From NCBI GenBank assembly GCA_029258795.1, contig JAPDKB010000002.1, positions 50,822 to 114,821 on the forward strand: 64,000 nucleotides of DNA, given 5' to 3'. The DNA comes from an archaeon (lineage in GTDB: Archaea; EX4484-52; WAPT01). How positions within the stretch are numbered: position 1 is the first letter of the stretch; each line of letters starts with the position of its first letter. The notes below the pieces were generated by a model. It worked only from the letters and a program-made list of their open reading frames with translations, was not told the origin of the DNA and did not search any database. Made by a program: the position numbers and the translations under genes. Positions 6,955 to 52,105 of this stretch are shown piece by piece.

Positions 6955-6978
6955 ATAAAAAACATTTAATTCGGCAAG

Positions 6979-7819: not shown

Positions 7820-7826
7820 AGGTTAT

Positions 7827-8726: not shown

Positions 8727-8820
8727 AATCTCTTGCAGTCAGCATACATTGTTATTTTATAGTTTTCTATTTTCGTTATGAGATGTGAGCGAAAGCTTTT
8801 TGTAGTTGATTTTTTGAACT

Positions 8821-9636: not shown

Positions 9637-9756
9637 AGGCCAATTAATGACCTTCTTTGTATTATTCGTTCTCTTGTGTCCTACTGCATACGACATTCTA
9701 TCATCGAGATACTCTCTAAAATTCTATAGTAGTAACCAACTTTTGAAAGTTCACAT

Positions 9757-10685: not shown

Positions 10686-10843
10686 TAAGTCTCATTATGC
10701 TTTTTTAATTATAAAATTTACGGCTCCAAGCGGCTTCGAGACAAAATTCATAGCTTGAGTTTTCGAGCTATGAAGATCAGAACTCCATACCACAAAAATT
10801 AGTTAGCTAAAACATTTCCGTATAAAAAACCATATTATACAGC

Positions 10844-11848: not shown

Positions 11849-11923
11849 CTATTGGGTTAATTTTGTCCCAAAGCCACCACAACCACAAACTTTATATACG
11901 ACGATCGCAATATTTCTATCTGG

Positions 11924-12952
11924 GTGATTTGGATGGCGGAGAATTCTCCTAATTACCGATATGATCCTCTCATAGGCGAGCTTTACTTGAATAAAATCTC
12001 GTGTGAGTTAACAACCAGAAAGTTTCACAATGACTTGAGGAGGGAGTTCGAGGCCATTCTGGGCGCGGTAGCTAAATCCATGTTCTACACGGTGGGTAAG
12101 GTAACGGGCATGATTGTTGCAAAGTACTTTGATGATATTGATGTGCTTTCGTGGATGGGTTGGGGTGTGCCTCTGGTTAAAAAAGATGGAAGCGTGGAAG
12201 TTAAAAATTCTTACATGACCATGTATCGGAGCGAGATAGGCAAGAAGTCATGCGATATCGTTGCAGGATTTCTGGCAGGGTGGTTCAGTAGGAAGGAAAA
12301 GGATAATGTCGATTTTATAGAATCGAGGTGCGCCTCAACCACTAAGTTCAAGACCTGCAGGTTTGAAAGGGTTGAAAAGAATGTGGCTGTCGAAGTACCT
12401 AAAATCAGGATGAAGAAGCCCAGAGAACACCTGAAAAATGTGAATATAAACCTGAAACCATCCAGTGGTGAGATAATTTATAGGGGAGATTCGTCTCTCA
12501 TCATTCCACGTGGCTTTACCGCGATCTTTCAGAGGGAATTTGAAAGGGTGATCGGGGCTGTTGCTTCCAGAAAAATGTACGAAGTTGTGAAGAAAATAAG
12601 TTATGAGGCAGTTGTGAAGGAGCAGGGGTTCAGGTTTATTGGACTTGCTATTCTTCCCAAATTCATCCGTGCAAAGCTGCTTCTTCATGAAGAGCTTGTG
12701 CAGCTACCCGAAAGAGGTTTTGGGAATGTCAGGGTTTTAAGACTGGATTTGAAGGAAGGGATTCTGCTGGAAATTGATAATTCTTACAACGCATTCACCT
12801 ACGGTAAGGTTGGCAAGCCCGTGTGTCACACGCTTGCAGGAGTTCTTGCGGGAGGTGCCAAGGCGGTGATTGGCGGAGATTGGGAATGCGTGGAGAATAA
12901 ATGCGTTGCTGCAGGAGATGGTGTCTGCGAGTTCGAGTTGAAGCCGGCGTGA
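11924..12952 (+). CDS. Tandem V4R domain protein
   Basis: 342 aa; two repeats ending in V4R-like Cys motifs (CDIVAGFLAGWFS...CASTTKFKTCRFE and CHTLAGVLAGG...WECVENKCVAAGDGVCEFEL). Confidence 0.55.
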   Translation: MIWMAENSPNYRYDPLIGELYLNKISCELTTRKFHNDLRREFEAILGAVAKSMFYTVGKVTGMIVAKYFDDIDVLSWMGWGVPLVKKDGSVEVKNSYMTMYRSEIGKKSCDIVAGFLAGWFSRKEKDNVDFIESRCASTTKFKTCRFERVEKNVAVEVPKIRMKKPREHLKNVNINLKPSSGEIIYRGDSSLIIPRGFTAIFQREFERVIGAVASRKMYEVVKKISYEAVVKEQGFRFIGLAILPKFIRAKLLLHEELVQLPERGFGNVRVLRLDLKEGILLEIDNSYNAFTYGKVGKPVCHTLAGVLAGGAKAVIGGDWECVENKCVAAGDGVCEFELKPA

Positions 12953-20063: not shown

Positions 20064-20201
20064 GAAAATGAAGTAAAAATCCGCAAGTTTTAAATTTTCA
20101 ACAGATATGTTTGGAATAACAGAGTTTTCTTCGCCATCTCCTACCCAAATTCTCTCGCGTTTTCAAAAATTTTGATGGACGTTATGAATAACCTTTTTAA
20201 A

Positions 20202-20223
20202 ATTATGAACATATGTTCATAAT
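20202..20223. promoter_or_regulatory. Perfect 22-bp palindrome ATTATGAACATATGTTCATAAT abutting the operon start codon (candidate operator)
   Basis: Direct reading; extra half-site TTATGAA at ~20182-20188; A/T-rich TATA-like TTTTTAAAA just upstream; ATG of the DUF134 gene at 20224. Confidence 0.5.
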
Positions 20224-20646
20224 ATGCCCCGCAGGAAGAAGTGCAGGATGATAGGAGAGATGCCAGGAGTGCTGTTCTTCAAGCCACGTGGCATTCCAAC
20301 GAGCGATTTGGAAATTGTGGAACTTAGCATGGATGAACTTGAGGCCATCAAGCTGAAGGACATGGTGGGGCTGGATCAGGAGGAATGCGCAGAAAAGATG
20401 GGCATCTCAAGACCAACATTTCATCGCATACTCACAAAAGCGAGGAGGAAAATTGCCGATGCGATGATCAACGGCAAGGCAATAAAGCTGGATGAAAATG
20501 TGAAGCTCATCAACGCGAGAAGATTCAGATGCAGAAACTGTATGCACGAATTCACCATACCGCACGGCAGGAGAGTCGTGGATGTTACTTGTCCATCCTG
20601 CGGGAGCGGCGAGTTTGAATCACTTCACAAAATTGTATGGGGGTGA
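20224..20646 (+). CDS. DUF134-family predicted DNA-binding protein
   Basis: 140 aa; HTH-like core LDQEECAEKMGISRPTFHRILTKARRKIADAM plus C-terminal CRNC...CPSCG zinc ribbon; first gene of the NifX/MinD cluster. Confidence 0.7.
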   Translation: MPRRKKCRMIGEMPGVLFFKPRGIPTSDLEIVELSMDELEAIKLKDMVGLDQEECAEKMGISRPTFHRILTKARRKIADAMINGKAIKLDENVKLINARRFRCRNCMHEFTIPHGRRVVDVTCPSCGSGEFESLHKIVWG

Positions 20647-20652
20647 TGTTTT

Positions 20653-20877
20653 ATGCCTTGGGGGAGAGGTCTTGGAAGAATGCGCGGATGGAGATGTTTT
20701 GGTAGAGGATGGAATTTCGCTTTCTGGAGGGGGAGGGGTAGAGGAATGAGAGCTGGACCTCCGGCTAAATGTGTTTGTCCTAACTGCGGATATGAGGTGG
20801 TGCATGTTAGGGGCAGGCCATGTTCATCAGAAATCTGTCCCAAGTGCGGCAGCAGGATGGTTGGGAAGTGGGAGTAA
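20653..20877 (+). CDS. Small RG-rich zinc-ribbon protein
   Basis: 74 aa; RG/GRG repeats (GRGLGRMRGWRCFGRGW...RGRGRG) followed by CPNCG...CPKCG. Confidence 0.5.
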   Translation: MPWGRGLGRMRGWRCFGRGWNFAFWRGRGRGMRAGPPAKCVCPNCGYEVVHVRGRPCSSEICPKCGSRMVGKWE

Positions 20878-20896: not shown

Positions 20897-21316
20897 ATGA
20901 AAATCTGTGTTCCAGCAACAGGAGAGGGTCTTGAGGTAAGGATATGTCCTGTATTTGGCAGAGCACCTTACTTTGTTTTTGTGGAGGTGGATGATGGAGG
21001 AAACATAACCTCATGGAACGCGGAAAAGAACCCAGCCGAGTATGCGAGGGGTGGTGCGGGCATAATGGCATCCCAGAAGGTGGTGGATGCTGGCTGTGAT
21101 GCACTCATAACCATTTCAATCGGGCCTAAAGCCTATGATGTGCTGAGAGCATCGGGAGTGAAGGTTTATGCCGGGGTGGAGGCATCGGTAAAGGATAATG
21201 TTGAAAAGCTGGTTAGAAACGAGCTGAGCGAGATGGTTGAAGCTGTGCCTGGAAGGTTCGGAAGAGGATGGAGAGGAGTAAGGGGCTTTGGAGCAGGGAG
21301 AGGGTGGAGATGGTGA
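20897..21316 (+). CDS. NifX/NafY-like (dinitrogenase FeMo-cofactor-binding fold) protein with RG-rich tail
   Basis: 139 aa; MKICVPATGEGLEVRICPVFGRAPYFVFVEVDD...GCDALITISIGPKAYDVL resembles the Nitro_FeMo-Co domain; C-terminal GRGWRGVRGFGAGRGWRW. Confidence 0.65.
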   Translation: MKICVPATGEGLEVRICPVFGRAPYFVFVEVDDGGNITSWNAEKNPAEYARGGAGIMASQKVVDAGCDALITISIGPKAYDVLRASGVKVYAGVEASVKDNVEKLVRNELSEMVEAVPGRFGRGWRGVRGFGAGRGWRW

Positions 21317-22569
21317 AGAACAGACACGCTGCTTTACGTGAGGGAATTAGGGCTATGCGTAACGTTTCCGTAGCTCTATTGCTGCTTGCTGCCCTGAAAT
21401 TTGCAGTTGGAATCATTGCCAACGCTCCCGTGCTTGTAGCGGACTCGCTCCATACCCTTGTGGATCTTTCCGCGGTGCTTGCCGTGCTTTTAGGCATAAA
21501 GCTTGCTACAAGACCTCCCTCGGAAAGGTTTCCGTACGGTTATTACAAGGCCGAATCTCTGGCAGCGCTTTTCGTTTCGGTAATCATAATGTACGGCGCG
21601 TACGAACTGGTTGGTGGGGCATTGCACAGGTGGAAGGAAGGCGCAGCCATCAACATGGTTCCGCTGGCTTCGGTTGTTGCAGCTATATCTCTGGTGCTCT
21701 CTTATATCCTTTCCAAGTATGAGGAAAGGGCAGCATTGCTGACGGGATCGGATGCCATCTCTGCCACCTCAAAAGAAGCATTGCTTGACGTCTTTTCTTC
21801 GGGCATGGTTCTGGTTTCCATCTTGCTCTCGTCAGCAGGACTTGCGTTCGTTGAAAGCGCAGTTACCATCCTCATCAGCCTGCTGGTTTTCAAGCTCGCT
21901 TTTGAAAATGTGTATTCAAGCATCATGGCTTTGATGGATGTCAGCCCTAGCAGGAAGATGGAGCAAAATGTAAGAAAAGTTCTGGAGAGCATGCCCGCCA
22001 TAGTTGGTTATAGGGACATGCGTCTCAGAAAGGCGGGCCCGTTCATATTTGGGGAGGTAACCATAATTACGGATCCAAAGCTTGATGTCGAAAAAGCCCA
22101 CAGCATTGCTGACGAGGTTGAGAGGAAAGTTATGGAAGAGGTGCCGCAGATAGAGCATCTTGTGGTGCATCTCGAGCCGTATGAGAAAGAGAAGTTGAGA
22201 GTTATCGTGCCCGTTACAGGGAATGAGGGAATGAATTCAAAACTTGCAGAACACTTCGGAAGGGCTGAAGGGTTCCTCATCTTTGAGGTTGAAAAAAAGA
22301 AGGGGAAAATGAAATTGCTTGATTTTGTCAAGAACTTGCAAAAACAAAAGAAGGTGAGAGCGGGATTAGCTGCCGCAAAACAGCTGCTGAAAAATGTCGA
22401 GTTTGATGCAGTCATAACTAAAGAGATGGGAGAGATAGCGTTTCATGTCCTGAAGGATGAGGGTAAGGATGTTTACAGGGCAAAAGGCTCTACCGCTGAA
22501 GAGGCTGTGAAGCTTTTCATGAAGGATGAGCTTGAAAAACTGGATACGCCCACAAAGGAAAAGGAGTGA
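21310..22569 (+). CDS. Cation diffusion facilitator (CDF) transporter fused to a C-terminal NifX-like domain
   Basis: CDF signature ADSLHTLVDLSAVL...RPPSERFPYGYYKAESLAALF with multiple TM helices, then LRVIVPVTGNEGMNSKLAEHFGRAEGFLIFEVE (NifX-like); ATG at 21310 overlaps the upstream stop (ATGGTGA). Confidence 0.7.
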   Translation: MVKNRHAALREGIRAMRNVSVALLLLAALKFAVGIIANAPVLVADSLHTLVDLSAVLAVLLGIKLATRPPSERFPYGYYKAESLAALFVSVIIMYGAYELVGGALHRWKEGAAINMVPLASVVAAISLVLSYILSKYEERAALLTGSDAISATSKEALLDVFSSGMVLVSILLSSAGLAFVESAVTILISLLVFKLAFENVYSSIMALMDVSPSRKMEQNVRKVLESMPAIVGYRDMRLRKAGPFIFGEVTIITDPKLDVEKAHSIADEVERKVMEEVPQIEHLVVHLEPYEKEKLRVIVPVTGNEGMNSKLAEHFGRAEGFLIFEVEKKKGKMKLLDFVKNLQKQKKVRAGLAAAKQLLKNVEFDAVITKEMGEIAFHVLKDEGKDVYRAKGSTAEEAVKLFMKDELEKLDTPTKEKE

Positions 22570-22573
22570 GGTG

Positions 22574-22918
22574 ATGCGAATGAAAATTGCCATACCGCTT
22601 GAGGAAAATAAGGGGGTTGATTCAAGAGTTGCGGAGCACTTCGGAAGGGTGAGATTCTTTCTGATATATGATACGGAAAGCGGAAGTTTTGAGGTGGTTG
22701 ATTTTGAGAAGGAGGAGGAAGGAGTCTGCAGCCCTGCGAGCTTTCTCATAGAGAGAGGTGTGCATGCCGTTTATGTGCTTGGAATGGGTTACAAAGCGAG
22801 ATGCATGCTTGAGGAAGCAGGCGTGCAGGTTCTCACAGGAGAGTACACGATAGCGAGAGACATCCTCAAAAATCTCGACCGCTTGAATAAATTTGAGGGA
22901 GGGTGTACTCATCACTGA
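22574..22918 (+). CDS. NifX/NafY-like domain protein
   Basis: MKIAIPLEENKGVDSRVAEHFGRVRFFLIYD...GVHAVYVLGMGYKARCMLEEAGVQV; RBS-like AAGGAGTGAGGTG upstream. Confidence 0.6.
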   Translation: MRMKIAIPLEENKGVDSRVAEHFGRVRFFLIYDTESGSFEVVDFEKEEEGVCSPASFLIERGVHAVYVLGMGYKARCMLEEAGVQVLTGEYTIARDILKNLDRLNKFEGGCTHH

Positions 22919-22942
22919 AGTGGAAAGTGCGGTGTGTGTTCG

Positions 22943-23815
22943 ATGCCCTTTACGATATGTGTTGTTTCAGGTAAGGGTGGTGTTGGCAAGACAACGGTAG
23001 CCGCAGCTCTCTCCAAAATATTGGCAAGAAAGTACAGGGTACTTGCGGTTGATGCGGATGTTGAATGCCCAAACCTCCACATCCTTTTGAAGGCAGGAGA
23101 GCTTGAGAAGGTGAGGGACGTTTGCACCACGCTTCCCGAGATAGATGAGAAGCGATGCATCCAATGCGGCAGGTGTGTGGAAGTGTGCAGAAAAAACGCG
23201 CTTTTCAGGAGAAAAGAAGGAGTTCCTCTCCTAATAGAAGAGCAGTGCAACGGCTGCAAGGCATGCTTCATTGTGTGTCCCACCAAAGCTATAGGGGAGA
23301 AAAAAGTTGTGATGGGAACGATAAGGAAGCGCGTGATCGAAAATGACAGGCTGGTTTTGCTATCCGGAGAGTTAGAGGTGGGACAGGAGGAGCCGACACC
23401 TGTTGTCAGAGAGCTGATGAGGGAGGTTGAAGCTGTAAAGCGTGATTTCGATTTTGTGGTGGTGGATGCAGCTCCCGGCGTGAAGTGCAACGTGGCTGCA
23501 GCTCTCGAGGGATGCGATCACACCTTGCTTGTTGTGGAGCCGACACCTTTCGGTGTTGAAGATGCGAAGCGAGTTGCGGAGCTAATCAAAATTATAGGTG
23601 TGGATGCTCATGTTGTCATCAACAGGTCTGTAAAGCGGGAGGAAGATGAGAAGAGAGTAATGGGTAGCGTACCATTTTCTGTAATCTGTACTTTACCCTA
23701 CTCCACGGAAGCCGTTAGACTCTATGTGGCAGGAGATGTGGAAAAGATGGAAGGTATAGGGGATATCGCAAAAGCTGTGGAGAAGCTTGCGGAGCTTTCG
23801 GGTGAGGAGGGATGA
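22943..23815 (+). CDS. MinD/ParA-superfamily P-loop ATPase with inserted 4Fe-4S ferredoxin domain
   Basis: Deviant Walker A VVSGKGGVGKTT; two Cys clusters CIQCGRCVEVC and CNGCKACFIVCP. Confidence 0.75.
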   Translation: MPFTICVVSGKGGVGKTTVAAALSKILARKYRVLAVDADVECPNLHILLKAGELEKVRDVCTTLPEIDEKRCIQCGRCVEVCRKNALFRRKEGVPLLIEEQCNGCKACFIVCPTKAIGEKKVVMGTIRKRVIENDRLVLLSGELEVGQEEPTPVVRELMREVEAVKRDFDFVVVDAAPGVKCNVAAALEGCDHTLLVVEPTPFGVEDAKRVAELIKIIGVDAHVVINRSVKREEDEKRVMGSVPFSVICTLPYSTEAVRLYVAGDVEKMEGIGDIAKAVEKLAELSGEEG

Positions 23816-24693
23816 AGAAAGTTGTGGTTGCATCCGGAAAGGGAGGGACGGGCAAAACAACCATCGCGTCAAGCCTCGCGGTGACGGCAGCAAAGCATTG
23901 TAAAGTGGTGGTGGCTGACTGTGATGTTGACGCTCCCAACTTGAAGCTGATTCTGGGGAAAGATAATATGGATGGCTTTGATTTTGTGGAGGTCAGCACG
24001 TCGGAGAAGGCATGTGTGGGTGAGCAGCGCTGCATCAACTGCGGGAGGTGTGTTGAAGCGTGTCAGTTTAATGCCATGCAGTGGGACAACAAGAAAAAGC
24101 TACCGAAGGTCAAGAAGATTTACTGCGAGGGTTGCGGAGCATGCCAGCTTGTGTGTCCAGCTGGAGCCATAGAAATAAAGGCTGTTAGAAACGGTAGAGT
24201 GGGGTGGGGAAAGCTAAGCCCAAATCTCTGGCTGGTTTTCGGTGAGCTTTACGTGGGAGAGTCAGCAAGTGGTAAAATAGTGGTGGATGTGAAGAAGAAA
24301 GCTCTCGAGCTTGCAAGAAATATAAATGCTGACCTGTTCATTGTTGATGCTTCCGCAGGTATAGGATGTCCCGTGATAGCATCCATGGCGTTCATGGATC
24401 ACGCTCTCATCGTTGCGGAGCCCACACCCTCAAGCGTCAGCGACATGGAAAGGATGCTCATGCTGGCGGAACACTTCAGGATGGAAAAGAGCGTGGTGAT
24501 AAATAAAGCCGGGCTGAGCGAGAGATGGCGAAAGGAAATAGAGACCATGGCATCGAGATATGATGCGGAAATCATAGCCACAATTCCGCACGACATGAGA
24601 GTTATGAATTCTGTATCAAGGCTCGTTCCTCTTGTTGAATATGAAGCCTCTTATCTTCCTTTATTCGAAAAAATTCTGACAAGATTACTCTGA
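23812..24693 (+). CDS. MinD/ParA-superfamily P-loop ATPase with ferredoxin domain (paralog)
   Basis: VASGKGGTGKTT; CINCGRCVEAC and CEGCGACQLVCP; start overlaps upstream stop (ATGA). Confidence 0.75.
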   Translation: MKKVVVASGKGGTGKTTIASSLAVTAAKHCKVVVADCDVDAPNLKLILGKDNMDGFDFVEVSTSEKACVGEQRCINCGRCVEACQFNAMQWDNKKKLPKVKKIYCEGCGACQLVCPAGAIEIKAVRNGRVGWGKLSPNLWLVFGELYVGESASGKIVVDVKKKALELARNINADLFIVDASAGIGCPVIASMAFMDHALIVAEPTPSSVSDMERMLMLAEHFRMEKSVVINKAGLSERWRKEIETMASRYDAEIIATIPHDMRVMNSVSRLVPLVEYEASYLPLFEKILTRLL

Positions 24694-25173
24694 AAAGAAC
24701 AGCTTCCTGTAATTCTCTGCTAGCTTAACAACCACAACCTTCCCTTCTTTCTCCCTGCTCACCACCCCTCTCTTCTCCAGCCTCTGCACAGCCCTGAAAA
24801 CGCGCAGCTTATCAAGCCTTGCCTGCTTTGCTATCCTTGCCTGTGTACTCTCTCCACCGCTTTCAAGCAAGATCTTCATAACTCTGGCCTCATCATCTCT
24901 GAGCAAGCTAAGCAATAGCTTCTTTTGCTGCGTTTCATTTCTGAAGCGGGGAGAAAGAAGGTAGTAGGTCGTGGTGCCTATGAAAAGGCCGAGCACCCCT
25001 ATGAAAGGAATAAAGAGGTAAACGGGAATGGCACAGGCGCAAATATCTCCTTCGTACACATGTTCCTGCACGTAAAGGGAAGAGAGAGCAACTATAAAAA
25101 CAAAGATGGACAGAATAAGCATTGCAAGTATGATTTTTTTATGGAGAGTTTTGAATGATAACGAGCTGTCCAT
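24685..25173 (-). CDS. Membrane-anchored winged-helix transcriptional regulator (hypothetical)
   Basis: 162 aa; two N-terminal TM helices, then an HTH-like segment ARVMKILLESGGESTQARIAKQARLDKLRVFRAVQRLEKRGVV. Confidence 0.5.
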   Translation of the reverse strand: MDSSLSFKTLHKKIILAMLILSIFVFIVALSSLYVQEHVYEGDICACAIPVYLFIPFIGVLGLFIGTTTYYLLSPRFRNETQQKKLLLSLLRDDEARVMKILLESGGESTQARIAKQARLDKLRVFRAVQRLEKRGVVSREKEGKVVVVKLAENYRKLFFSE

Positions 25174-25231
25174 GTATCTGGCATGAGCGGAGAAAAACTT
25201 TTATATATATCTTTGGGTGCAATTAAAGGTA

Positions 25232-26164
25232 ATGCCCGCAAAAAAGCAGAGCTTTGGAGAATTTTTGAAGGATAATGTGGCAACGTCTTTCAAGCATGCG
25301 ATCCACAGCAGGAGTTTTGTGATAGTTTATCTTTTTCATCTCGTGTTTTTCTCGGCGATGATTTACACAGCATTAAAAATGGTTCCTTCTTTTCTCCAAC
25401 TGAGCATCGCTCAAGAAATGGGGATCGGGCTTGCTGCAGGCACGAACACAGCCGGAATTCTAATGACGCAGTTCGTATACTTGGGAGTGATATTTATCAT
25501 ATACTGGCTCCTCAGCTATGTCATAACGGTTGCAGTGCTGGTGGGATTTGATGAGATGAGACGCACCAAAAAAGAGGGAAGGTTTCTTGATCACTTCGTT
25601 TACGGGTTTTATCGGCTGCCCACATTGATAGGCATAGCTATCGTTTCCGCCTTGCTCATGCTTCCCGGTGCAATACTATCCGAGCTGGTCAAGAAGGTGT
25701 CATTGACTGCCGGAAGCTTTGTTTATGACGTTTATTCCATTGTTCTCACACTGACCATTTTGCTTGCTGTGCCATATGCCGTGCTGAAGAAGGAAGGCAT
25801 CCTGAGTTCCATCAAGAAATCCTACCGTGCCTTTAAGGACAATCCCGTCGAGATTCTGATCTCCTATCTTGTGGGGGTCGCGGTCTCGCTCTCTGTTGTG
25901 CTCGCATTTCTCGTGCCGGTTGGTGTTGTGCTGGTCATGAAGCTCTCTCCAGCCATATCACCACTCTTACAGCAGCTGGGTGGCGCAGCACAACAAAACC
26001 CGCAGCTTATGGTGGGTTCAATCTCCGGAATAGTAACCGCACTTTATCAGCACCGTTACTGGCTCATTGGAGGTTATGTTGTTGGCATTGTGGGTTTCAC
26101 ACTTTCTTACCTTTTCTGGGCTTCTTATCTAGTAGGGTTGTTCAGGAGGTACGGGAGAAAGTAA
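25232..26164 (+). CDS. Polytopic membrane protein (hypothetical)
   Basis: ~310 aa with at least 6 hydrophobic helices; ATG at 25232 within ORF 25217..26164. Confidence 0.45.
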   Translation: MPAKKQSFGEFLKDNVATSFKHAIHSRSFVIVYLFHLVFFSAMIYTALKMVPSFLQLSIAQEMGIGLAAGTNTAGILMTQFVYLGVIFIIYWLLSYVITVAVLVGFDEMRRTKKEGRFLDHFVYGFYRLPTLIGIAIVSALLMLPGAILSELVKKVSLTAGSFVYDVYSIVLTLTILLAVPYAVLKKEGILSSIKKSYRAFKDNPVEILISYLVGVAVSLSVVLAFLVPVGVVLVMKLSPAISPLLQQLGGAAQQNPQLMVGSISGIVTALYQHRYWLIGGYVVGIVGFTLSYLFWASYLVGLFRRYGRK

Positions 26165-26244
26165 TTCGTTGATTGACGGTATTCTCTGAAGGGTGAATTC
26201 TAATGTTTTAAAAATTTAAAGTGTAACTATCAAGCGGTGAAATT

Positions 26245-26874
26245 ATGAATGATGATCGGGTAAATAAAATTAAAATCATGTATGTTTTAATCCCGGTGCC
26301 TGTATCGAAATCTCCATTTATTGAAAATGAACACAAAACCTATTCTGAAAAGAGCAAGTCTGGTGTGATACATCCAGAAATACTTTCTGCTGGTTTTGCA
26401 GCATCCCTTTTTGAGGATAAGCATTTTGAGCGCATTTATAAAAAGGTCGCGCGAAGATTTGGGAATCATTTAGGAAGTAGAACGTATGATGTCAAAAACA
26501 GAGGTTCTCTTCCACTAATGGTCATTGAGGCATGCTCAAAAGCTGTGGGTCTAGATGCTTTGGATCCTGAAGAAATTTATATCCAGAATTTATTGGAATT
26601 CAAAAGAAACAAAGAATATCGAATTCAGGTTTTGAAAGAGTGTTCTGAGATGAGCAAGGGAGCGAGGTACAAAGACAAGTATGTGGAGGTCATACGCCAA
26701 TTCTTGGGCGATATACCTTGGTACAAGAGAATAACGGAGAAATTAAAGGGCAAGCAGGGTGACGATTTTGAGAATATGGAAGGACTGGGTAAAGAGATTC
26801 ATGAACACATTATCGATGGTTATTTCATCTTACATGATTACCTCCAACAAAAATCGTGTGAATGTTACGGGTGA
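26245..26874 (+). CDS. Hypothetical protein (ORFan, AT-rich island)
   Basis: 209-aa ORF, AT-rich codon usage distinct from neighbours; no recognisable motifs. Confidence 0.4.
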   Translation: MNDDRVNKIKIMYVLIPVPVSKSPFIENEHKTYSEKSKSGVIHPEILSAGFAASLFEDKHFERIYKKVARRFGNHLGSRTYDVKNRGSLPLMVIEACSKAVGLDALDPEEIYIQNLLEFKRNKEYRIQVLKECSEMSKGARYKDKYVEVIRQFLGDIPWYKRITEKLKGKQGDDFENMEGLGKEIHEHIIDGYFILHDYLQQKSCECYG

Positions 26875-27971
26875 TGCATATGCAGGCTATGGAGCTTCCA
26901 CCACTATTTAAGGAAACAGAGGAAAAATACGAAGTGCATAGGTTGCCTGAGTATATAATTACTGATAAAGAAGTTAAAGATGAGAAAAAAGCTAACTCAT
27001 ACCGTGATAGCGGATATTTCGTTGTAGAGGGTAAAGTATATTCACTACCTCCAGAAGTTCCGGCAGCAGGACTTGCTTCTTCAAGATGGGATGATGACGA
27101 GATAGTAGAATATTATCTAAACTACCTTATCAGAGATTTTATCCCTAAAGAAAAGAAAAAGTTCGTTGAACACTATATTGATAACCCATTATCTATAGCT
27201 AAAACCTTGGGTCCCGAAAATATAATTTTGAGAGTTTTTGGTAAGGAAAGTATGAAGGATAAAAAAATTTATGAAGAAAAGGTAAAAGACACGGATCAAG
27301 ATAAGCTGCGCGGATTACTTCCTGCTATCTGGGCAGAATATTATTTTCAGAATCCATTTTATCATATGTCCTACAGCCCGTATGAAGAGCTGAAAGAAGG
27401 AACAACGGCTAAAGACATATACCTTCTGTGTATTCACGGATTCCGTGACAATCCTAAATATAAGGAGAAAGCTCTACACACTTGGGGTAAGTGGAGCGAG
27501 CTTGTAGGGCACACGGATGATCCTCTTATCGAGAAATACCGCATTCTCAGTACAGACCCAGAAATGGAGACCAGACTGAGACGTGAGACCATGGAACTTC
27601 TGGCGGCACCTATTGCTGCCGGAACGATTCTCGGTGTCGGAACATTATCCACAGCGCTCCTCGCACAGACAGATGTGCTCAAGTGGGGCTTGAAGGCAGG
27701 ATTTGAAGCTTACAAACACACAGGTGTTACGGGTGCGATTCCAGCACTAGCATATGGAGCGGTCGCGATTCCCGGATTCATAATCGGCGGTACTGCAGGT
27801 TGGCTGGTCTACAACATCCTCGGAAAAATGGGTGGAGAGAAAATAAGTGAAGGAAAAATACGAAGGATAGAGGAGGATAAAAGCAGGGTGAGGACAGAGC
27901 TTGAAAAAGACATGGAAATCTATCAGAATCTTGCAGACAGTTACTACCGGATGTTAAGAGCTTTGGAATGA
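26862..27971 (+). CDS. Hypothetical protein with C-terminal glycine-zipper membrane segment
   Basis: 369 aa; soluble N-terminal part, then AAPIAAGTILGVGTLSTALLAQ...GVTGAIPALAYGAVAIPGFIIGGTAGWLVYNILG, then a charged coiled-coil tail. Confidence 0.45.
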   Translation: MLRVMHMQAMELPPLFKETEEKYEVHRLPEYIITDKEVKDEKKANSYRDSGYFVVEGKVYSLPPEVPAAGLASSRWDDDEIVEYYLNYLIRDFIPKEKKKFVEHYIDNPLSIAKTLGPENIILRVFGKESMKDKKIYEEKVKDTDQDKLRGLLPAIWAEYYFQNPFYHMSYSPYEELKEGTTAKDIYLLCIHGFRDNPKYKEKALHTWGKWSELVGHTDDPLIEKYRILSTDPEMETRLRRETMELLAAPIAAGTILGVGTLSTALLAQTDVLKWGLKAGFEAYKHTGVTGAIPALAYGAVAIPGFIIGGTAGWLVYNILGKMGGEKISEGKIRRIEEDKSRVRTELEKDMEIYQNLADSYYRMLRALE

Positions 27972-27972
27972 A

Positions 27973-30828
27973 TTAAGAGACGGGTAAGGAAGGGTTGTTG
28001 GGCCAGTAATACATGGCATCTATTTGTGCATATGCCCATTCCTCCGCCATACCCATTCCAAATTCTGCCACCGCAAGCCACGCACCAGCGGTAAAGTACG
28101 CTGCCACTACGTTAACCGCAGTCATGAAAGCGCTAACACCCAATTTCAAAGCCTGTTCTTGAAGGGTGCCGCTTCCATAGTAACAGAAGTTGTCAGTGTT
28201 TGTTGGAGCTCGAACAACCGAAACCGTGATTACGGGGTGAGTGGTTTTATCAATTAGCTGTTGAGGCACAATACCGTCTAAAGCACTTGTGAAGATATTG
28301 GGTGGATTACAGCTTCTTTTGACCTTAACGTTAGTCGGGAGGATATCAACATCTTCTCCAAGCCAATGCTTAAAGGAGCTGTAATCATAGAGTTCGTTAT
28401 TGGCACGACCGGTGGGCTCAAAAATACCCCATATCGGATTATTCTCTGGTGTCTTTCCCACACAGTAAACTTCCTCTCTTATGGGTAAGGGCATACCATT
28501 CTCTACTATTATTCCTCCAGCACCAGTAACTTTAGCCACATAAACACAGGATTTAGGCCAAGAGGCACATATGTCTCTTGGAGGTGGTGTGAACGGATTC
28601 ACGAAATCGGTAAACCAACTCCAGTCCGCACCAGAATAAGGTAACAAATTACACATTTGGATTAATGCCGCGCACTCCTCATACATTTTTCGAGTTTCAT
28701 TATTATCATCTTTTGTTACTACGTGGTCGATTACATGGTCTTGATAATATTTTTGGAGGTCATCAAGCACCTCGTCATCAGAGTGTGAGTCATCGAATAG
28801 AACTAATTCAGTATGCGTTTTAATATCTTCAGGAATTTTTTCGGTGTCACAATTAAGCTTTGTTTTGACATATTCCGCACACACATGTCTATCAAATCTA
28901 GTGACAGCACATTCTTTTGTGGCGGTTTTTGAAACCAGCAAGTCCGCTTTGCAGGGAGCGGCAAAATACATTCTTAAACTTGAACCTCCCTTGTCGATCT
29001 CCACAAAATAAGGTCTGACTTCATCCACCAGCTTTATGGTTTGAGTTGCCCTCTCCGGGCTGGCGGAAGCCGTGAGAATGTCCAGCAGGAACACTTTTTG
29101 AGGGGAGTAAACATGAAGTGTGTTATAGTCAGAAGGCAACTCCTTGACTTTGAGTGCCATGTCTATTTGCTGAGTGGTATAGAGGAGTGCAGCAAGAGCA
29201 CAGGTCGAAAATCTCTTGAAAGGTCTACCACTGCCTGTCAGAGCTGTGCACTCATAAGAGTTTTTCGCAACTTGTGCCCAGTAAGAATCTTCCGGTATGA
29301 TCTGATCCGCAAGTCCGGTATCATCAAGCGCTTCCAGCATCCAGAAGGAGAAATGTGCACCTTCTCGGTAAGCCAGAAACTTCATAACCTCCGGGAAATT
29401 CTTCCCCACCCCTTTCCAAAATTCCGGACTTAATTTTCGCTGACCCATGAAGCCATATTGATCGGCTAACTTTCTTATATTATTTTTGAGCGCTTGGTAT
29501 GTAGTTTCATCATTTAGAGCATCCTTGAGTATACCCATCGCCTCTTCTTTACTTCCAGCATTTTTTATCTTCTCCAAGGTTTCTTCCGGTAAGTCCTTCG
29601 CGATTGTCGATGCTATTTTGTTATCTGTTTTTAGAACTACCACTGCCAACTTGCTATCTAACTCACCACTTTTTACCCCCTTAACTATTTCATAGATTCT
29701 TTTCCATTGATCTCCCATTTCTTTTATGCTTAGAGTGTAACCTTTAGTGTTAAGATCTCCAAAAATTTCTCGAAAAACAACACTTCCGTCCTCTCCATTT
29801 CTAATAGCATTTTGCAGCTTTTCGGCTGCTTCTTTGGCAACGTTTTCACTCACGCCTTTATTTTTTAACCACTTTTCAAAACTCTCCGCCAGGATTTCGT
29901 CTCCATCCTTTCGTAGCGTCTTGGCAAATCCTTCCAAGCCCTCAGTACAGCTTTTTAGTGCAATTCTGGATAGAACCTTCCCTTCTCCTCCAAATATTCT
30001 GCCCAAAAAGTTCAGTTTTTTAAGCGCCTTAAAAGCCTTCCCAGCTATACCGCCGCCAACGTTCAAAAATCCCGCAAGCACCATACTTCCGAAGAGGTCT
30101 GCAGCTTCTTCAGACTCGAGCCATGCCTGCTCTTCTCCCTCTGGAAAAGAATTGTAATAAATTATGACATCAGGGTCGTAATATTTTGGTTTGATTCTCT
30201 CACCGAACTCAACTTTCCCGCTTTCATGCTGTTTCAAGTCAAAATTGAACACTTTACACTTGAATTCTGGTGTGTTCAGTTGAGAATAGTATTCAGTTAT
30301 CTTCTCATCCTTGCTGGCGGGATTGCTCCATAAAGCATCTTTTGATAGCAATGTGCTGTTCGCACACACAACAACACTATTACCGAACCTGTAAGCAACG
30401 GGTTTTTCCTCAGCATAGGCAAGCTCGATTCCAAATAATCCTGTTACAATGTTCTCAACCTTTCTCTTAACTCTTTTCATATCCCTTATCATCATCGCCG
30501 TTGGGTTGTTTTTTCCAGCTTCTATTGCATTTATTGCATCATCAAATGTGTATAGAGGCTCTATCGTTACTGATCCTGCATTGTTCGTTATTTCTGAATT
30601 TTCACAGGTATAGTCGTTAATGTATCCTGCAGCCTCACTGTTTATTGCGCAAGCTAACGCTAGAGCTGAAGCCTGGCTTATGGGGTCGATTTTGAACTCG
30701 AGAAGCTTGCTTAAGAATTCATTCAGGCCTATGATGAATGCCACAAGAAGAAACAATATGAAAATGAAGAGAAGTATTCTAAAAATAGGTTCTTCTTTCA
30801 ACGTGGCTTTGGTACGGGAGAGTTTCAT
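27973..30828 (-). CDS. Large (951 aa) signal-anchored extracellular protein, hypothetical
   Basis: N-terminal TM anchor FRILLFIFILFLLVAFIIGL; long Cys-containing C-terminal region; AT-rich; abuts the tRNA-Gly 3' end. Confidence 0.55.
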   Translation of the reverse strand: MKLSRTKATLKEEPIFRILLFIFILFLLVAFIIGLNEFLSKLLEFKIDPISQASALALACAINSEAAGYINDYTCENSEITNNAGSVTIEPLYTFDDAINAIEAGKNNPTAMMIRDMKRVKRKVENIVTGLFGIELAYAEEKPVAYRFGNSVVVCANSTLLSKDALWSNPASKDEKITEYYSQLNTPEFKCKVFNFDLKQHESGKVEFGERIKPKYYDPDVIIYYNSFPEGEEQAWLESEEAADLFGSMVLAGFLNVGGGIAGKAFKALKKLNFLGRIFGGEGKVLSRIALKSCTEGLEGFAKTLRKDGDEILAESFEKWLKNKGVSENVAKEAAEKLQNAIRNGEDGSVVFREIFGDLNTKGYTLSIKEMGDQWKRIYEIVKGVKSGELDSKLAVVVLKTDNKIASTIAKDLPEETLEKIKNAGSKEEAMGILKDALNDETTYQALKNNIRKLADQYGFMGQRKLSPEFWKGVGKNFPEVMKFLAYREGAHFSFWMLEALDDTGLADQIIPEDSYWAQVAKNSYECTALTGSGRPFKRFSTCALAALLYTTQQIDMALKVKELPSDYNTLHVYSPQKVFLLDILTASASPERATQTIKLVDEVRPYFVEIDKGGSSLRMYFAAPCKADLLVSKTATKECAVTRFDRHVCAEYVKTKLNCDTEKIPEDIKTHTELVLFDDSHSDDEVLDDLQKYYQDHVIDHVVTKDDNNETRKMYEECAALIQMCNLLPYSGADWSWFTDFVNPFTPPPRDICASWPKSCVYVAKVTGAGGIIVENGMPLPIREEVYCVGKTPENNPIWGIFEPTGRANNELYDYSSFKHWLGEDVDILPTNVKVKRSCNPPNIFTSALDGIVPQQLIDKTTHPVITVSVVRAPTNTDNFCYYGSGTLQEQALKLGVSAFMTAVNVVAAYFTAGAWLAVAEFGMGMAEEWAYAQIDAMYYWPNNPSLPVS

Positions 30829-48489: not shown

Positions 48490-48502
48490 CCCTCTTTATG
48501 TT

Positions 48503-51984: not shown

Positions 51985-52105
51985 CCCGCCGTAGCTTAGT
52001 CTGGTAGAGCGCTCGGCTGTAGGTCTGTGCCGCGTGGTATGGCGCAGCCACGCAGCCAGTTGCTCAGAAACCGAGAGGTCCCCGGTTCGAATCCGGGCGG
52101 CGGGA
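51985..52105 (+). tRNA. tRNA-Tyr (anticodon GTA) with canonical anticodon-loop intron (~47 nt)
   Basis: Acceptor CCCGCCG/CGGCGGG+A+CCA; D-arm GCTT-AGTCTGGTA-GAGC; anticodon stem CTCGG...CCGAG with CTGTAG then intron; intact T-arm CCCGG-TTCGAAT-CCGGG. Confidence 0.75.

What the first reader, a model, noticed from the sequence alone, without database searches (positions are those of the whole stretch)
21310..22569. Cation-diffusion-facilitator transporter fused to a NifX-like cofactor-binding domain
A CDF membrane domain is followed in the same polypeptide by a C-terminal Nitro_FeMo-Co-like domain. I do not recall this architecture being described; it would couple metal efflux or uptake to a cofactor-binding module and could be a sensor or metal-handoff device.
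Basis: partly seen in the sequence, partly recalled or inferred. Interest (0 to 1): 0.6.

Follow-up and report, generated by a model that had tools for sequence, protein, structure and literature searches.

The report
Metal exporter fused to IssA-like domain
A membrane metal-ion exporter in an uncultured archaeon carries an extra domain, related to iron-sulfur storage and carrier proteins, on its cytoplasmic end; the fusion is real, is conserved in many anaerobic archaea and ultra-small bacteria inside an iron-sulfur-handling operon, and has not been described in the papers I could search.

Summary
ORF 21310-22569 (+) is one uninterrupted 419-aa protein (433 aa from an upstream ATG). It has six CDF transmembrane helices, the CDF cytoplasmic dimerisation domain, a ~5-residue linker and a Nitro_FeMo-Co (PF02579) domain. 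It is not an assembly artefact: the same protein is on an independent assembly, all 80 related genome loci fetched carry the same fused ORF, and an exhaustive search found about 145 distinct 50%-identity clusters matching across the junction. "NifX-like" is true only at superfamily level. The domain is closest to MTH1175, which the IssA paper calls an IssA-type protein; NafY, NifX and NifB are not detected. The gene sits in a tight, widely conserved operon: DUF134 regulator, small G/R/W-rich protein, IssA-like protein with a cationic tail, the fusion, a short NifX-like protein ending in CxHH, and two MinD-like [4Fe-4S] ATPases. This matches the Desulfovibrio "orange protein" (ORP) gene set. 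The CDF part is nearest FieF/MamB/MamM. Best reading: a divalent-metal (probably Fe2+) exporter whose tethered, strongly basic, cysteine-free domain binds an anionic Fe-S species and couples export to the cytoplasmic Fe-S pool. Substrate and coupling are inferred. It is a new variant of known kinds, present in databases but undescribed in the searched literature.

The parts
20193..20204 (+). TATA-like box (CTTTTTAAAATT) of the operon promoter
   Evidence: Read directly from the sequence. It lies in the only conserved stretch of the intergenic region in window, L002, L003 and L004. Promoter function is inferred.
20202..20223 (.). Perfect 22-bp palindrome ATTATGAACAT|ATGTTCATAAT, a candidate operator abutting the DUF134 start codon
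   Evidence: inverted repeat I1, 100% complementary. It is a phylogenetic footprint. The core TGAAYATATRTTCA occurs in 21 of 80 loci, 23 hits against 5.6 in shuffles, most often just upstream of the first operon gene.
20224..20646 (+). DUF134 (UPF0251) HTH protein with a C-terminal zinc ribbon; probable operon regulator
   Evidence: Pfam DUF134 E 3.5e-25, plus a sigma-70 region-4-like HTH. Present in 41 of 80 related loci.
20653..20877 (+). 74-aa protein with a G/R/W-rich cationic N-terminus and a CxxC...CxxC zinc ribbon
   Evidence: Translation. Only sub-threshold zinc-ribbon hits. Relatives in 34 of 80 loci. DUF5320 occupies the equivalent position in 24 loci.
20897..21316 (+). IssA-like protein: Nitro_FeMo-Co domain plus a cationic G/R/W tail (GRFGRGWRGVRGFGAGRGWRW)
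   Evidence: Pfam E 1.3e-20. The tail matches the published description of the IssA tail. 34 of 57 upstream paralogues in related loci have at least 40% R/G/W in their last 28 residues.
21310..21936 (+). Fusion protein, CDF transmembrane domain (six helices; transport-site residues H62, D66, E170, D174 in 433-aa numbering)
   Evidence: Pfam Cation_efflux. TIGR01297 scores 203 bits against a cut-off of 82. Residue-by-residue alignment to Shewanella YiiP. Six helices in the AlphaFold2 model. Family conservation.
21937..22185 (+). Fusion protein, cytoplasmic CDF C-terminal (ZT_dimer) domain
   Evidence: Pfam ZT_dimer E 1.3e-18. The model shows an alpha-beta-beta-alpha-beta fold. H278, H301 and E303 align with YiiP residues H263, H285 and D287; I assign those to YiiP's cytoplasmic metal site C from memory.
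22186..22569 (+). Fusion protein, ~5-residue linker, MTH1175/IssA-type Nitro_FeMo-Co domain and stop codon; the domain has no cysteine and is strongly basic
   Evidence: Pfam E 2.9e-15. MTH1175 E 3e-13. Own orthologous group. Median pI 9.4 across the family. Invariant N356, G366 and G388.
22580..22918 (+). Short free-standing Nitro_FeMo-Co protein (112 aa) ending ...GGCTHH
   Evidence: Pfam E 2.7e-18. Gene call on the independent assembly. Many downstream paralogues in related loci end in GC(G/S)H(H). MrpORP's Di-Nase domain has a similar terminal CDH motif.
22934..23815 (+). MinD/CbiA-type P-loop ATPase with an inserted 2x[4Fe-4S] ferredoxin domain (Orp3/Orp4-like), copy 1; the start may be the ATG at 22943
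   Evidence: Pfam CbiA, ParA and Fer4 families. Gene call. Description of Orp3/Orp4.
23812..24693 (+). MinD/CbiA-type P-loop ATPase with an inserted 2x[4Fe-4S] ferredoxin domain, copy 2; overlaps copy 1 by 4 nt
   Evidence: Pfam. MinD-Fer4 genes are present in 57 of 80 related loci.
24685..25173 (-). Convergent membrane-anchored TrmB/MarR-type winged-helix protein; membership of the system is uncertain
   Evidence: Pfam TrmB E 9.7e-8. Found in the same position in L002 and L003, and present in a few other loci.

Best explanation
The gene encodes a cation-diffusion-facilitator (CDF) antiporter of the FieF/MamB-like branch. It has six transmembrane helices and the usual cytoplasmic dimerisation domain. 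A rigidly tethered third domain of the MTH1175/IssA clade of the NifB/NifX/NafY (IPR003731) superfamily sits on its cytoplasmic end. The protein is a fixed component of a conserved operon of anaerobes. That operon also encodes an IssA-like protein with a cationic tail, a second short NifX-like protein, two MinD-like [4Fe-4S] ATPases and a DUF134 regulator, so it is an archaeal and CPR-bacterial counterpart of the Desulfovibrio ORP gene set.

Proposed mechanism: like other CDFs, the transporter moves a divalent cation, most probably Fe2+, out of the cytoplasm in exchange for protons. The basic, cysteine-free NifX-like domain binds an anionic iron-sulfur species (thioferrate-like or a small Fe-S fragment) that the soluble paralogues also handle. 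This would tie exporter activity to the state of the cytoplasmic Fe-S store, either as an allosteric sensor added to the CDF C-terminal domain or as a docking and hand-off site.

Shown here: the architecture, its conservation, the operon, the nearest relatives, and the charge and conservation of the domain. Inferred: the cytoplasmic location (from the model plus known CDF topology), the metal, the ligand, the direction of transport and the coupling.
For: Architecture: Pfam; TIGR01297 met; AlphaFold2, pLDDT 90: six TM helices, C-terminal domain, alpha/beta domain, 5-residue linker; YiiP is the best fold match; no listed match spans both parts.

The fusion is real and old: about 145 of the top 150 representatives match across the junction; the fused domains are each other's best hits in 400 of 400 cases, so they form their own orthologous group.

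Purifying selection: mean pairwise identity is 38% for the NifX-like domain, 41% for the transmembrane domain and 46% for the C-terminal domain; N356, G366 and G388 are invariant.

IssA and Fe-S link: MTH1175 is the best solved relative, and Vaccaro et al. 2017 call it an IssA-type protein. The upstream gene has an IssA-type G/R/W tail. About 9 of 88 fusion proteins carry such a tail themselves. [quoted passage not shown]

Operon: the gene order recurs in 80 loci. Orp3/4-like ATPases and Di-Nase proteins define the ORP complex.

CDF branch: NCBIfam scores rank FieF 137, MamB 133 and MamM 131 bits above MntE 107, ZitB 52 and DmeF 31.

Anionic ligand: the fused domain has median pI 9.4 and net charge +5, against pI 6.2-7.9 for the free paralogues.

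Metal theme: a ZIP importer is co-operonic in 11 of 80 loci.
Against: No metal or ligand was measured, so everything about substrate and coupling is inference.

The transport site (H62-D66 / E170-D174, with H at 174 in 28 of 88 members) matches no characterised specificity motif. The protein fails every NCBIfam equivalog cut-off, including FieF, MamB and MamM. From my own recollection of the literature, YiiP is best characterised with Zn/Cd and its role in iron transport is disputed.

The fused domain has no cysteine in this protein and few across the family, so a classical cluster ligation is excluded.

A basic surface could equally serve lipid binding or protein docking.

An exporter in a storage operon is not an obvious fit, and the co-operonic ZIP transporters could point to zinc.

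The physiological role of the ORP complex is itself unresolved ("putatively involved in cell division").
Confidence: 0.5

Rival explanations
1. It is a zinc (or Mn/Co/Ni) CDF, and the extra domain is only a dimerisation or regulatory add-on that senses the transported cation itself. On this view it has no link to Fe-S species, and the operon association reflects general metal homeostasis.
For: YiiP, a Zn/Cd transporter in the solved structures, is the best sequence and fold match. ZIP-family transporters sit in the same operon in 11 of 80 loci. H278, H301 and E303 are kept at the positions of YiiP H263, H285 and D287. The isolated Di-Nase domain of MrpORP is dimeric.
Against: The zinc equivalogs score much lower than FieF, MamB and MamM (ZitB 52, Cdf31 83 bits). 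The fused domain belongs to a superfamily whose characterised members bind Fe-S or thiometallate clusters. Every other conserved operon partner is an Fe-S or IssA-type protein. The domain has only two moderately conserved histidines and essentially no cysteine for direct Zn2+ sensing.
Confidence: 0.2
2. The tethered domain acts as a membrane anchor or nucleation site for IssA-type iron-sulfur mineral. The CDF would then work at the store: either loading it by sink-driven reverse operation (Fe2+ in), or releasing Fe2+ from it. This would be a compartment-free analogue of MamB/MamM-dependent biomineralisation.
For: MamB and MamM are among the nearest CDF models. The fused domain and the IssA-like tails are both cationic, so both could bind the same anionic (FeS2-)n polymer. 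Some fusion proteins carry an IssA-type tail themselves. A NifX/NifB domain occurs in the magnetosome protein FmpB of Desulfovibrio magneticus.
Against: To my knowledge, characterised prokaryotic CDFs export from the cytoplasm. No internal compartment is known in these hosts. Import is more simply assigned to the co-operonic ZIP or to Feo. There is no direct evidence for thioferrate in any host of this family.
Confidence: 0.12
3. The operon handles molybdenum or tungsten thiometallate clusters, as the orange protein binds a Mo-Cu sulfide cluster. The CDF would supply or remove the divalent partner metal.
For: The gene set parallels the ORP complex, whose Di-Nase protein Orp8 binds S2MoS2CuS2MoS2 non-covalently. 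The fused domain has a weak match to ORP 2wfb (E 9e-3). A basic, cysteine-free pocket suits a non-covalently bound anionic cluster.
Against: ORP is a much weaker match than MTH1175. No Mo/W transport or molybdopterin genes are among the recurrent neighbours or in the window. The physiological relevance of the Mo-Cu cluster is itself unsettled.
Confidence: 0.1
4. The domain is a nitrogenase-cofactor (NifX/NafY-type) carrier, linking metal transport to FeMo-co biosynthesis. This is the literal reading of the Pfam name.
For: The Pfam family name, and a superfamily-level match.
Against: NafY, NifX and NifB are not detected at E<=10 with the domain alone. nifB TIGR01290 scores 18.7 bits against a cut-off of 344. 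No nif genes are in the 64-kb window. The family is concentrated in MAGs labelled as DPANN archaea and CPR bacteria, groups not known to fix nitrogen (established knowledge).
Confidence: 0.02
5. It is a nickel importer with an F430 shuttle, as speculated for the equivalent gene neighbourhood in an ANME-2a genome.
For: The ANME-2a study lists a CDF transporter beside 4Fe-4S proteins, a NifX-family protein and a P-loop NTPase, and proposes Ni/F430 roles from a predicted interaction network.
Against: Most hosts are MAGs labelled DPANN, Thermoplasmata, Bathyarchaeia or CPR bacteria. Most such lineages are not methane-metabolising and would have no use for F430 (established knowledge, not tested here). 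DmeF, the Co/Ni CDF, is the weakest CDF match (31 bits). To my knowledge CDFs export rather than import.
Confidence: 0.02
6. The fusion is an artefact: a misassembly or a sequencing frameshift joining two adjacent genes.
For: None found. NifX-like genes do lie on both sides, which would make such an error conceivable.
Against: An identical protein is on an independent assembly. 80 of 80 loci from different lineages have the fused ORF. The fused domain is a separate orthologous group from both neighbours. The model has a confident short linker.
Confidence: 0.01

Closest known systems
YiiP/FieF and the magnetosome CDFs MamB/MamM (Fe/Zn branch of the cation diffusion facilitator family, TC 2.A.4)
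   Same: Six transmembrane helices plus an alpha-beta-beta-alpha-beta cytoplasmic domain. The best sequence and fold matches are to YiiP. The NCBIfam ranking is FieF > MamB > MamM. Acidic and histidine transport-site residues lie at the canonical TM2 and TM5 positions.
   Different: It has an extra ~125-residue NifX-like domain after the C-terminal domain; no listed fold match spans both parts. The transport site is H-D / E-D at the positions of YiiP D47, D51, H155 and D159. The YiiP loop residues I recall as its site B (D70, H73, H77) are replaced by S, F and Y, and only part of the residues I recall as its site C is kept. It scores far below every equivalog cut-off.
IssA (Pyrococcus furiosus PF2025) and MTH1175-type IPR003731 proteins
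   Same: The fused domain's closest solved relative is MTH1175 (E 3e-13), which the IssA paper calls an IssA-type protein. It has few or no cysteines and a basic character. The neighbouring gene has the hallmark cationic G/R/W tail, and about 10% of fusion proteins carry one themselves.
   Different: The domain is covalently tethered to a membrane transporter instead of being soluble. This particular protein has no tail and ends in the family motif PTKEKE. Neither thioferrate nor any other ligand has been shown for it.
Orange-protein (ORP) complex genes of Desulfovibrio vulgaris (Orp3, Orp4, Orp5, Orp8, Orp9/MrpORP)
   Same: Two paralogous MinD-like ATPases with two [4Fe-4S] motifs (Orp3/Orp4-like) occur together with single-domain Di-Nase proteins (Orp8-like), in an anaerobe-specific cluster. 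MrpORP is a precedent for fusing the Di-Nase domain to another functional module.
   Different: Here the Di-Nase domain is fused to a CDF transporter, not to an Mrp/NBP35 NTPase. No Orp9-type gene is in this operon. Regulation is by a DUF134-type protein with a palindromic operator rather than sigma-54/OrpR. I found no mention of a CDF in the ORP papers I could read. The founding paper (PMC3133258) was not available.
NifX / NafY / C-terminal domain of NifB (nitrogenase cofactor carriers)
   Same: Same Pfam and InterPro superfamily (PF02579 / IPR003731) and the same alpha/beta fold class.
   Different: There is no detectable pairwise similarity to solved NafY, NifX or NifB. There is no nif context. 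The hosts are mostly lineages not known to fix nitrogen.

Membership tests
Cation diffusion facilitator (CDF) family | Match to the family model above its curated threshold | tested here: met
   TIGR01297 scores 203 bits against a cut-off of 82. Pfam Cation_efflux scores 130.5 bits against 26.6.
Cation diffusion facilitator (CDF) family | Six transmembrane helices followed by a cytoplasmic alpha-beta-beta-alpha-beta C-terminal domain | tested here: met
   The AlphaFold2 model has helices 2-36, 40-66, 78-110, 117-145, 148-175 and 179-208, then H-E-E-H-E at 215-290. Pfam ZT_dimer E 1.3e-18. Fold match to YiiP.
Cation diffusion facilitator (CDF) family | Polar (D/H/E) quartet on TM2 and TM5 forming the transport site | tested here: met
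   H62, D66, E170 and D174 align with YiiP D47, D51, H155 and D159. Across the family D66 is kept in 88 of 88 members, H62 in 77, E170 in 74, and position 174 is D in 59 or H in 28. The combination is unusual.
Cation diffusion facilitator (CDF) family | Metal/proton antiport activity | not testable with these tools
   Requires transport assays.
FieF, MamB, MamM, MntE, ZitB and DmeF equivalogs (substrate-defined CDFs) | Score above the NCBIfam equivalog cut-off | tested here: not met
   Score against cut-off: FieF 137/420, MamB 133/350, MamM 131/350, MntE 107/500, ZitB 52/408, DmeF 31/250. The protein is nearest the Fe/Zn branch but is a member of none of these.
Nitro_FeMo-Co / IPR003731 superfamily | Match to the domain model above its gathering score | tested here: met
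   PF02579 scores 56.8 bits against 26.3, covering model positions 2-93 of 94. 88 clusters carry the same three Pfam domains.
IssA clade (iron-sulfur storage protein) | Globular domain groups with MTH1175/IssA rather than with NifX, NafY or NifB | tested here: inconclusive
   The best solved relative is MTH1175 (E 3e-13), and NafY, NifX and NifB are undetected. The paper calls MTH1175 an IssA-type protein. I made no phylogeny that includes PF2025 itself.
IssA clade (iron-sulfur storage protein) | Cationic, glycine/arginine/aromatic-rich C-terminal tail | tested here: not met
   The fusion protein in the window ends ...DTPTKEKE with no tail. About 9 of 88 family members do have one. The upstream gene 20897-21316 has one.
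IssA clade (iron-sulfur storage protein) | Binds Fe and S as thioferrate | not testable with these tools
   Needs anaerobic reconstitution and spectroscopy.
NifX / NafY (nitrogenase cofactor carriers) | Specific similarity to NifX or NafY, and a nif gene context | tested here: not met
   No NafY or NifX hit at E<=10. No nif genes among about 60 window ORFs. nifB TIGR01290 scores 18.7 bits against 344.
ORP (orange protein) complex gene set | Two MinD-like ATPases with 2x[4Fe-4S] motifs (Orp3/Orp4) clustered with single-domain Di-Nase proteins (Orp8) | tested here: met
   Genes 22934-23815 and 23812-24693 match CbiA/ParA plus Fer4 families, and genes 20897-21316 and 22580-22918 match Nitro_FeMo-Co.
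ORP (orange protein) complex gene set | Mrp/NBP35-Di-Nase fusion protein (Orp9/MrpORP) | tested here: not met
   NF041136 MrpORP gives only partial matches of 26-49 bits against a cut-off of 450. No such gene is in the operon.
ORP (orange protein) complex gene set | Physical complex of the gene products | not testable with these tools
   Needs co-purification.

The most novel reading that the evidence does not exclude
The operon is a membrane-coupled iron-sulfur mineral system. The transporter-tethered basic domain and the tailed IssA-like protein would hold an anionic thioferrate-like polymer at the cytoplasmic face of a MamB/FieF-like CDF. Fe2+ flux across the membrane would then be directly gated by, or fed from, an inorganic Fe-S store. 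This would be a compartment-free counterpart of magnetosome-type biomineralisation. It would also be a core iron-homeostasis device of DPANN archaea and CPR bacteria, and it would give the long-enigmatic ORP/MTH1175 proteins a defined function.
Probability: 0.15. Interest if true: 0.8.

Novelty: new variant of a known kind. Interest (0 to 1): 0.55.

Why it matters
CDF transporters and the MTH1175/ORP/IssA branch of the NifX superfamily have each been studied for about two decades, and the second group still lacks an agreed physiological role. A conserved covalent link between them, found in lineages with very small genomes (DPANN archaea, CPR bacteria) as well as in Thermoplasmata, Bathyarchaeia and Methanosarcinales, argues that these small "cofactor-binding" proteins act on a species connected to divalent-metal flux across the membrane. 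It provides a simple experimental handle: one protein, with and without one domain, and a transport read-out. It also extends the known repertoire of CDF regulatory domains. Finally, it gives a predicted regulator-operator pair (DUF134 and the TGAAYATATRTTCA palindrome) for an operon that is widespread in anaerobes.

Tried and rejected
1. The genome scan with the single protein found nothing; it had to be repeated with an alignment.
2. Six literature searches found no paper that describes the fusion: CDF+NifX, DUF134+FeMo-co, COG/MTH1175 terms, CDF+iron-molybdenum cofactor, DUF134/UPF0251/COG1342, and PF02579/IPR003731. The ANME-2a paper lists the same neighbourhood without noticing the fusion.
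3. The founding ORP paper (PMC3133258) is not held.
4. The afdb50 fold library was unavailable.
5. Cluster look-ups gave no names or accessions for the source organism. The host is therefore known only as an archaeon (SRP RNA) syntenic with two MAGs labelled "Nanobdellati archaeon".
6. My first tail-detection script undercounted the IssA-like tails, because the query protein's own tail was part of the alignment. It was redone on the last 28 residues.
7. Model coordinates are not exposed.
8. I considered and rejected a misassembly, a nitrogenase role and an F430/Ni role (see rivals).
Full report
OBSERVATION. On the + strand there is one uninterrupted ORF from 21268 to the TGA at 22567-22569 (433 aa). 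The ATG at 21310 gives 419 aa and is the likelier start. It overlaps the stop of the upstream gene (ATGGTGA), follows a GGTGGAG motif, and matches the N-termini of homologues. Pfam finds Cation_efflux at residues 35-223 (E 8.6e-38), ZT_dimer at 227-305 (E 1.3e-18) and Nitro_FeMo-Co at 323-418 (E 2.9e-15; 56.8 bits against a gathering score of 26.3).

IS THE FUSION REAL? Reads were not available, but four independent lines replace them.
- The identical 433-aa protein is encoded on a separate ENA assembly (ERZ25515926 NODE_195), with the same neighbours.
- A word-indexed search of 5.8 billion proteins returned 88 clusters with all three Pfam domains, at 33-62% identity.
- A scan of species-representative genomes gave at least 557 relatives. 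In all 80 of the best loci one intact ORF of 404-465 aa contains both parts.
- An exhaustive phmmer search with only the C-terminal domain plus the NifX-like half (210 aa) against 1.84 billion representatives gave 274 proteins at E<=1e-10. About 145 of the top 150 match in one stretch across the junction.

AlphaFold2 with a 48-sequence alignment gives pLDDT 90 and pTM 0.68. The model has six transmembrane helices, an alpha-beta-beta-alpha-beta C-terminal domain, a linker of about five residues, and an alpha/beta domain. A stop, frameshift or misassembly is excluded.

WHAT THE TWO HALVES ARE.

The N-terminal 290 residues are a bona fide CDF. TIGR01297 scores 203 bits against a cut-off of 82. 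Shewanella and E. coli YiiP/FieF are the best sequence matches (E 2e-27) and fold matches (E 5e-16). Among substrate-defined NCBIfam models the order is FieF 137, MamB 133, MamM 131, MntE 107, Cdf31 83, ZitB 52 and DmeF 31 bits. All are far below their equivalog cut-offs. The protein therefore lies nearest the Fe/Zn branch but belongs to no characterised subfamily.

Aligned to YiiP, the transport-site quartet D47/D51/H155/D159 becomes H62/D66/E170/D174 in 433-aa numbering. Across 88 family members D66 is invariant, H62 is kept in 77, E170 in 74, and position 174 is D in 59 or H in 28. The positions of the YiiP loop residues D70, H73 and H77 are occupied by S, F and Y. At the positions of YiiP H263, H285 and D287 the family keeps H278, H301 and E303, whereas the positions of H234 and H250 are R and T. 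The assignment of these YiiP residues to its sites A, B and C is from my memory of the YiiP structures, not from a tool.

The C-terminal ~125 residues belong to PF02579/IPR003731 but are not NifX proper. With the domain alone, the solved relatives are MTH1175 (E 3e-13), TM1290 (5e-10), TM1816 (6e-6) and the orange protein 2wfb (9e-3). NafY, NifX and NifB do not appear even at E<=10. Vaccaro et al. [quoted passage not shown] Its globular domain binds Fe and S, and a cationic Gly/Arg/aromatic tail is proposed to wrap the anionic polymer.

The fused domain has no cysteine here and few across the family. Its conserved positions include H329-F-G-R-A, N356 (100%), R364-A-G366 (G 100%), G388 (100%), F392-H393 and a C-terminal P-T-(K/R)-E-K motif. 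It is consistently basic: median pI 9.4 and net charge +5, against pI 6.2-7.9 for the free-standing paralogues. It is about as conserved as the rest of the protein: mean pairwise identity is 38%, against 41% for the transmembrane domain and 46% for the C-terminal domain. The fused domains form their own orthologous group, since all 400 top-5 BLAST hits of fused domains are other fused domains. This suggests one old fusion followed by specialisation. About 9 of 88 fusion proteins additionally end in an IssA-style R/G/W tail.

SURROUNDINGS. The gene is the fourth of seven tightly packed, co-directional genes, separated by gaps of 6-19 nt or by overlaps:
1. DUF134 HTH protein with a zinc ribbon (20224-20646).
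2. A 74-aa protein with a G/R/W-rich head and a zinc ribbon (20653-20877).
3. A Nitro_FeMo-Co protein with the tail GRFGRGWRGVRGFGAGRGWRW (20897-21316).
4. The fusion protein.
5. A 112-aa Nitro_FeMo-Co protein ending GGCTHH (22580-22918).
6. and 7. Two MinD/CbiA ATPases with inserted 2x[4Fe-4S] ferredoxin domains (22934-23815 and 23812-24693).

A TrmB-like gene converges on the end of the operon.

In the 80 related loci the same order recurs. 60 have free NifX-like genes, 57 have MinD-Fer4 genes and 41 have DUF134 within 6 kb. The upstream paralogue typically has the cationic tail (34 of 57), and the downstream one is typically ~110 aa and often ends in GC(G/S)H(H). Further recurrent neighbours are DUF5320 (24 loci), an unannotated ~380-aa family (18), UDG (13), a ZIP metal transporter (11), DUF123 (11), a metallo-beta-lactamase-fold protein (10), a radical SAM protein (9) and a thioredoxin-FTR fusion (9).

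Hosts, by the labels on the records, are mostly DPANN archaea: "Nanobdellati", Aenigmatarchaeota, Woesearchaeota, Iainarchaeota, Micrarchaeota and Parvarchaeota. Thermoplasmata, Bathyarchaeia and Methanosarcinales also occur. So do CPR bacteria, including a complete Nealsonbacteria genome, and some MAGs labelled Gammaproteobacteria or Actinomycetota. The window itself is archaeal (SRP RNA). It is syntenic from the XPD helicase to beyond TrmB with two "Nanobdellati archaeon" MAGs.

This gene set corresponds to the "orange protein" (ORP) complex of Desulfovibrio. There, Orp3 and Orp4 are MinD-like proteins with two [4Fe-4S] motifs. Orp8 is a single-domain "Di-Nase" protein that binds a Mo-Cu sulfide cluster non-covalently. 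Orp9/MrpORP is a P-loop NTPase fused to a Di-Nase domain that binds a [3Fe-4S] cluster and is dimeric (PMC6345978). In Methanococcus voltae, two IssA homologues four locus tags apart are up-expressed on pyrite together with a thioferrate-like EPR signal (PMC8516115). An ANME-2a study lists a CDF next to 4Fe-4S proteins, a NifX-family protein and a P-loop NTPase. It does not notice the fusion and proposes a Ni/F430 role from a predicted network (PMC12622379).

HOW IT MOST LIKELY WORKS.

Shown by the tools: a CDF with an extra domain of the MTH1175/IssA type, conserved and under constraint, in an Fe-S/IssA/ORP-type operon.

From established CDF knowledge (my own recollection): both termini and the C-terminal domain are cytoplasmic, the proteins are homodimers, and they export divalent cations from the cytoplasm against proton influx.

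Inferred:
- The cation is probably Fe2+. The grounds are the FieF/MamB/MamM proximity, the Fe-S character of every partner, and the fact that the family is concentrated in anaerobic lineages.
- The basic, cysteine-free domain binds an anionic Fe-S species non-covalently, as IssA and ORP bind their inorganic anions.
- This binding either regulates the transporter, as an added allosteric module at the end of the regulatory C-terminal domain, or docks the soluble paralogues for hand-off.

I put about 0.95 on the architecture and its reality, 0.9 on operon membership, about 0.5 on iron, and about 0.35 on the sensor or hand-off coupling. The overall figure for the explanation is 0.5.

RIVALS.
- A Zn (or other metal) CDF whose extra domain is a plain dimerisation or cation-sensing module (0.2). 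It is favoured by YiiP's zinc biochemistry and the co-operonic ZIP genes, and disfavoured by the low ZitB/Cdf31 scores and the all-Fe-S context.
- A membrane anchor for an IssA-type mineral, with the CDF loading or unloading the store (0.12). This is attractive because of the MamB/MamM similarity and the shared cationic character, but there is no evidence for inward transport or for thioferrate in these hosts.
- ORP-like Mo/W thiometallate handling (0.1).
- A nitrogenase cofactor role (0.02), a Ni/F430 role (0.02) and an artefact (0.01) are effectively excluded.

COMPARISON AND NOVELTY. The protein works like a CDF and is a member of the CDF family. It is not a member of any substrate-defined equivalog. 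Its extra domain is a member of the IPR003731 superfamily and is closest to the MTH1175/IssA group. It fails the IssA tail criterion in this protein, and it is not NifX or NafY. The operon matches the ORP gene set except for the absence of an MrpORP-type gene and the presence of the CDF fusion.

The architecture is already in public sequence databases, under the generic CDF name. Six full-text searches of 8 million papers and preprints found no description of it. That library omits most subscription journals, so absence is not proof. I class it as a new variant of known kinds. Interest is moderate to good (0.55). It is not a new principle, but it is a widespread, unstudied coupling of two families, one of which still lacks a settled function, and it is easy to test.

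ALSO SEEN. A TATA-like box and a perfect 22-bp palindrome abut the DUF134 start codon. They form the only conserved part of the intergenic region across loci whose proteins are only about 47-62% identical. The core TGAAYATATRTTCA recurs upstream of the first operon gene in 21 of 80 loci. This is a likely operator, probably for DUF134. The window also encodes IscS-IscU, ThiI, two transposases in a low-GC island and a fused PyrK-PyrD.

Noticed in passing
window 20193-20223; also L002 ~5293-5323, L003, L004, and 17 further loci: A TATA-like box (CTTTTTAAAATT) overlaps a perfect 22-bp palindrome (ATTATGAACAT|ATGTTCATAAT) directly before the DUF134 start codon. It is the only conserved stretch of the intergenic region. 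The core TGAAYATATRTTCA occurs in 21 of 80 loci (23 hits against 5.6 in shuffles), most often just upstream of the first operon gene, across very distant lineages. It is a candidate operator for the DUF134 regulator.
   Followed up: partly
window 22580-22918 and the downstream paralogues in L002-L081: The short NifX-like paralogue downstream of the fusion ends in a conserved C-terminal Cys-x-His(-His) motif (GGCTHH here; GC(G/S)H(H) elsewhere). This resembles the terminal CDH motif reported for the cluster-binding Di-Nase domain of MrpORP. It forms a paralogue class distinct from the tailed IssA-like one.
   Followed up: partly
window 20653-20877; DUF5320 genes in 24 of 80 loci (e.g. L024 193-615): A 74-aa protein has a G/R/W-rich cationic head and a CxxC...CxxC zinc ribbon, with no family hit above threshold. 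In many related operons a DUF5320 protein, also G/R-rich, occupies the same slot. These may be further polyanion-binding components.
   Followed up: partly
L015, L016, L020, L024, L033, L034, L039, L047, L068, L074, L077: A ZIP-family metal transporter is encoded on the same strand inside or next to the operon in 11 of 80 loci. Other recurrent neighbours are a thioredoxin-FTR fusion (9 loci), a radical SAM protein (9), a UDG-superfamily protein (13), DUF123 (11) and an unannotated ~380-aa family (18).
   Followed up: partly
P0089, P0091; P0094-P0120: Two family members of full length (402-412 aa) have a C-terminal region that no longer hits PF02579. A separate set of 443-496-aa CDFs with 26-32% identity has extra length of unknown nature.
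   Followed up: no
window 48085-49705 (- strand): An IscS-type cysteine desulfurase (Aminotran_5, 400 aa) lies next to an IscU/NifU_N scaffold (134 aa). So an ISC-type Fe-S assembly pair exists in the same genome, about 25 kb from the operon.
   Followed up: no
window 6000-12000, especially 7006-8726 (- strand): A low-GC island (33-36% against about 47%) carries IS240-like (DDE_Tnp_IS240) and IS1595-like transposase genes and several ORFs without family hits. It is probably mobile DNA.
   Followed up: no
window 35404-38480 (+): A single 592-aa ORF combines an NAD-binding/Fe-S (PyrK-like) part with dihydroorotate dehydrogenase (PyrD). It overlaps by 4 nt an amidohydrolase that is probably dihydroorotase.
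   Followed up: no
window 51985-52105 (+) and 52001-54000: A 121-nt tRNA match implies an intron. It is followed by the lowest-GC stretch of the window (31.5%), which holds a 476-aa ORF without any Pfam hit.
   Followed up: no
window 27973-30828 (-), 13424-15463 (+), 25217-27971 (+): Large ORFs (951, 679, 315, 209 and 369 aa) have no Pfam match at E<=1e-5. Three of them lie directly downstream of the operon region.
   Followed up: no
window 3641-4114 and 11924-12952 (+): There are two V4R-domain proteins; the longer one has two V4R repeats. The domain is a small-molecule-binding module of unclear role in archaea.
   Followed up: no
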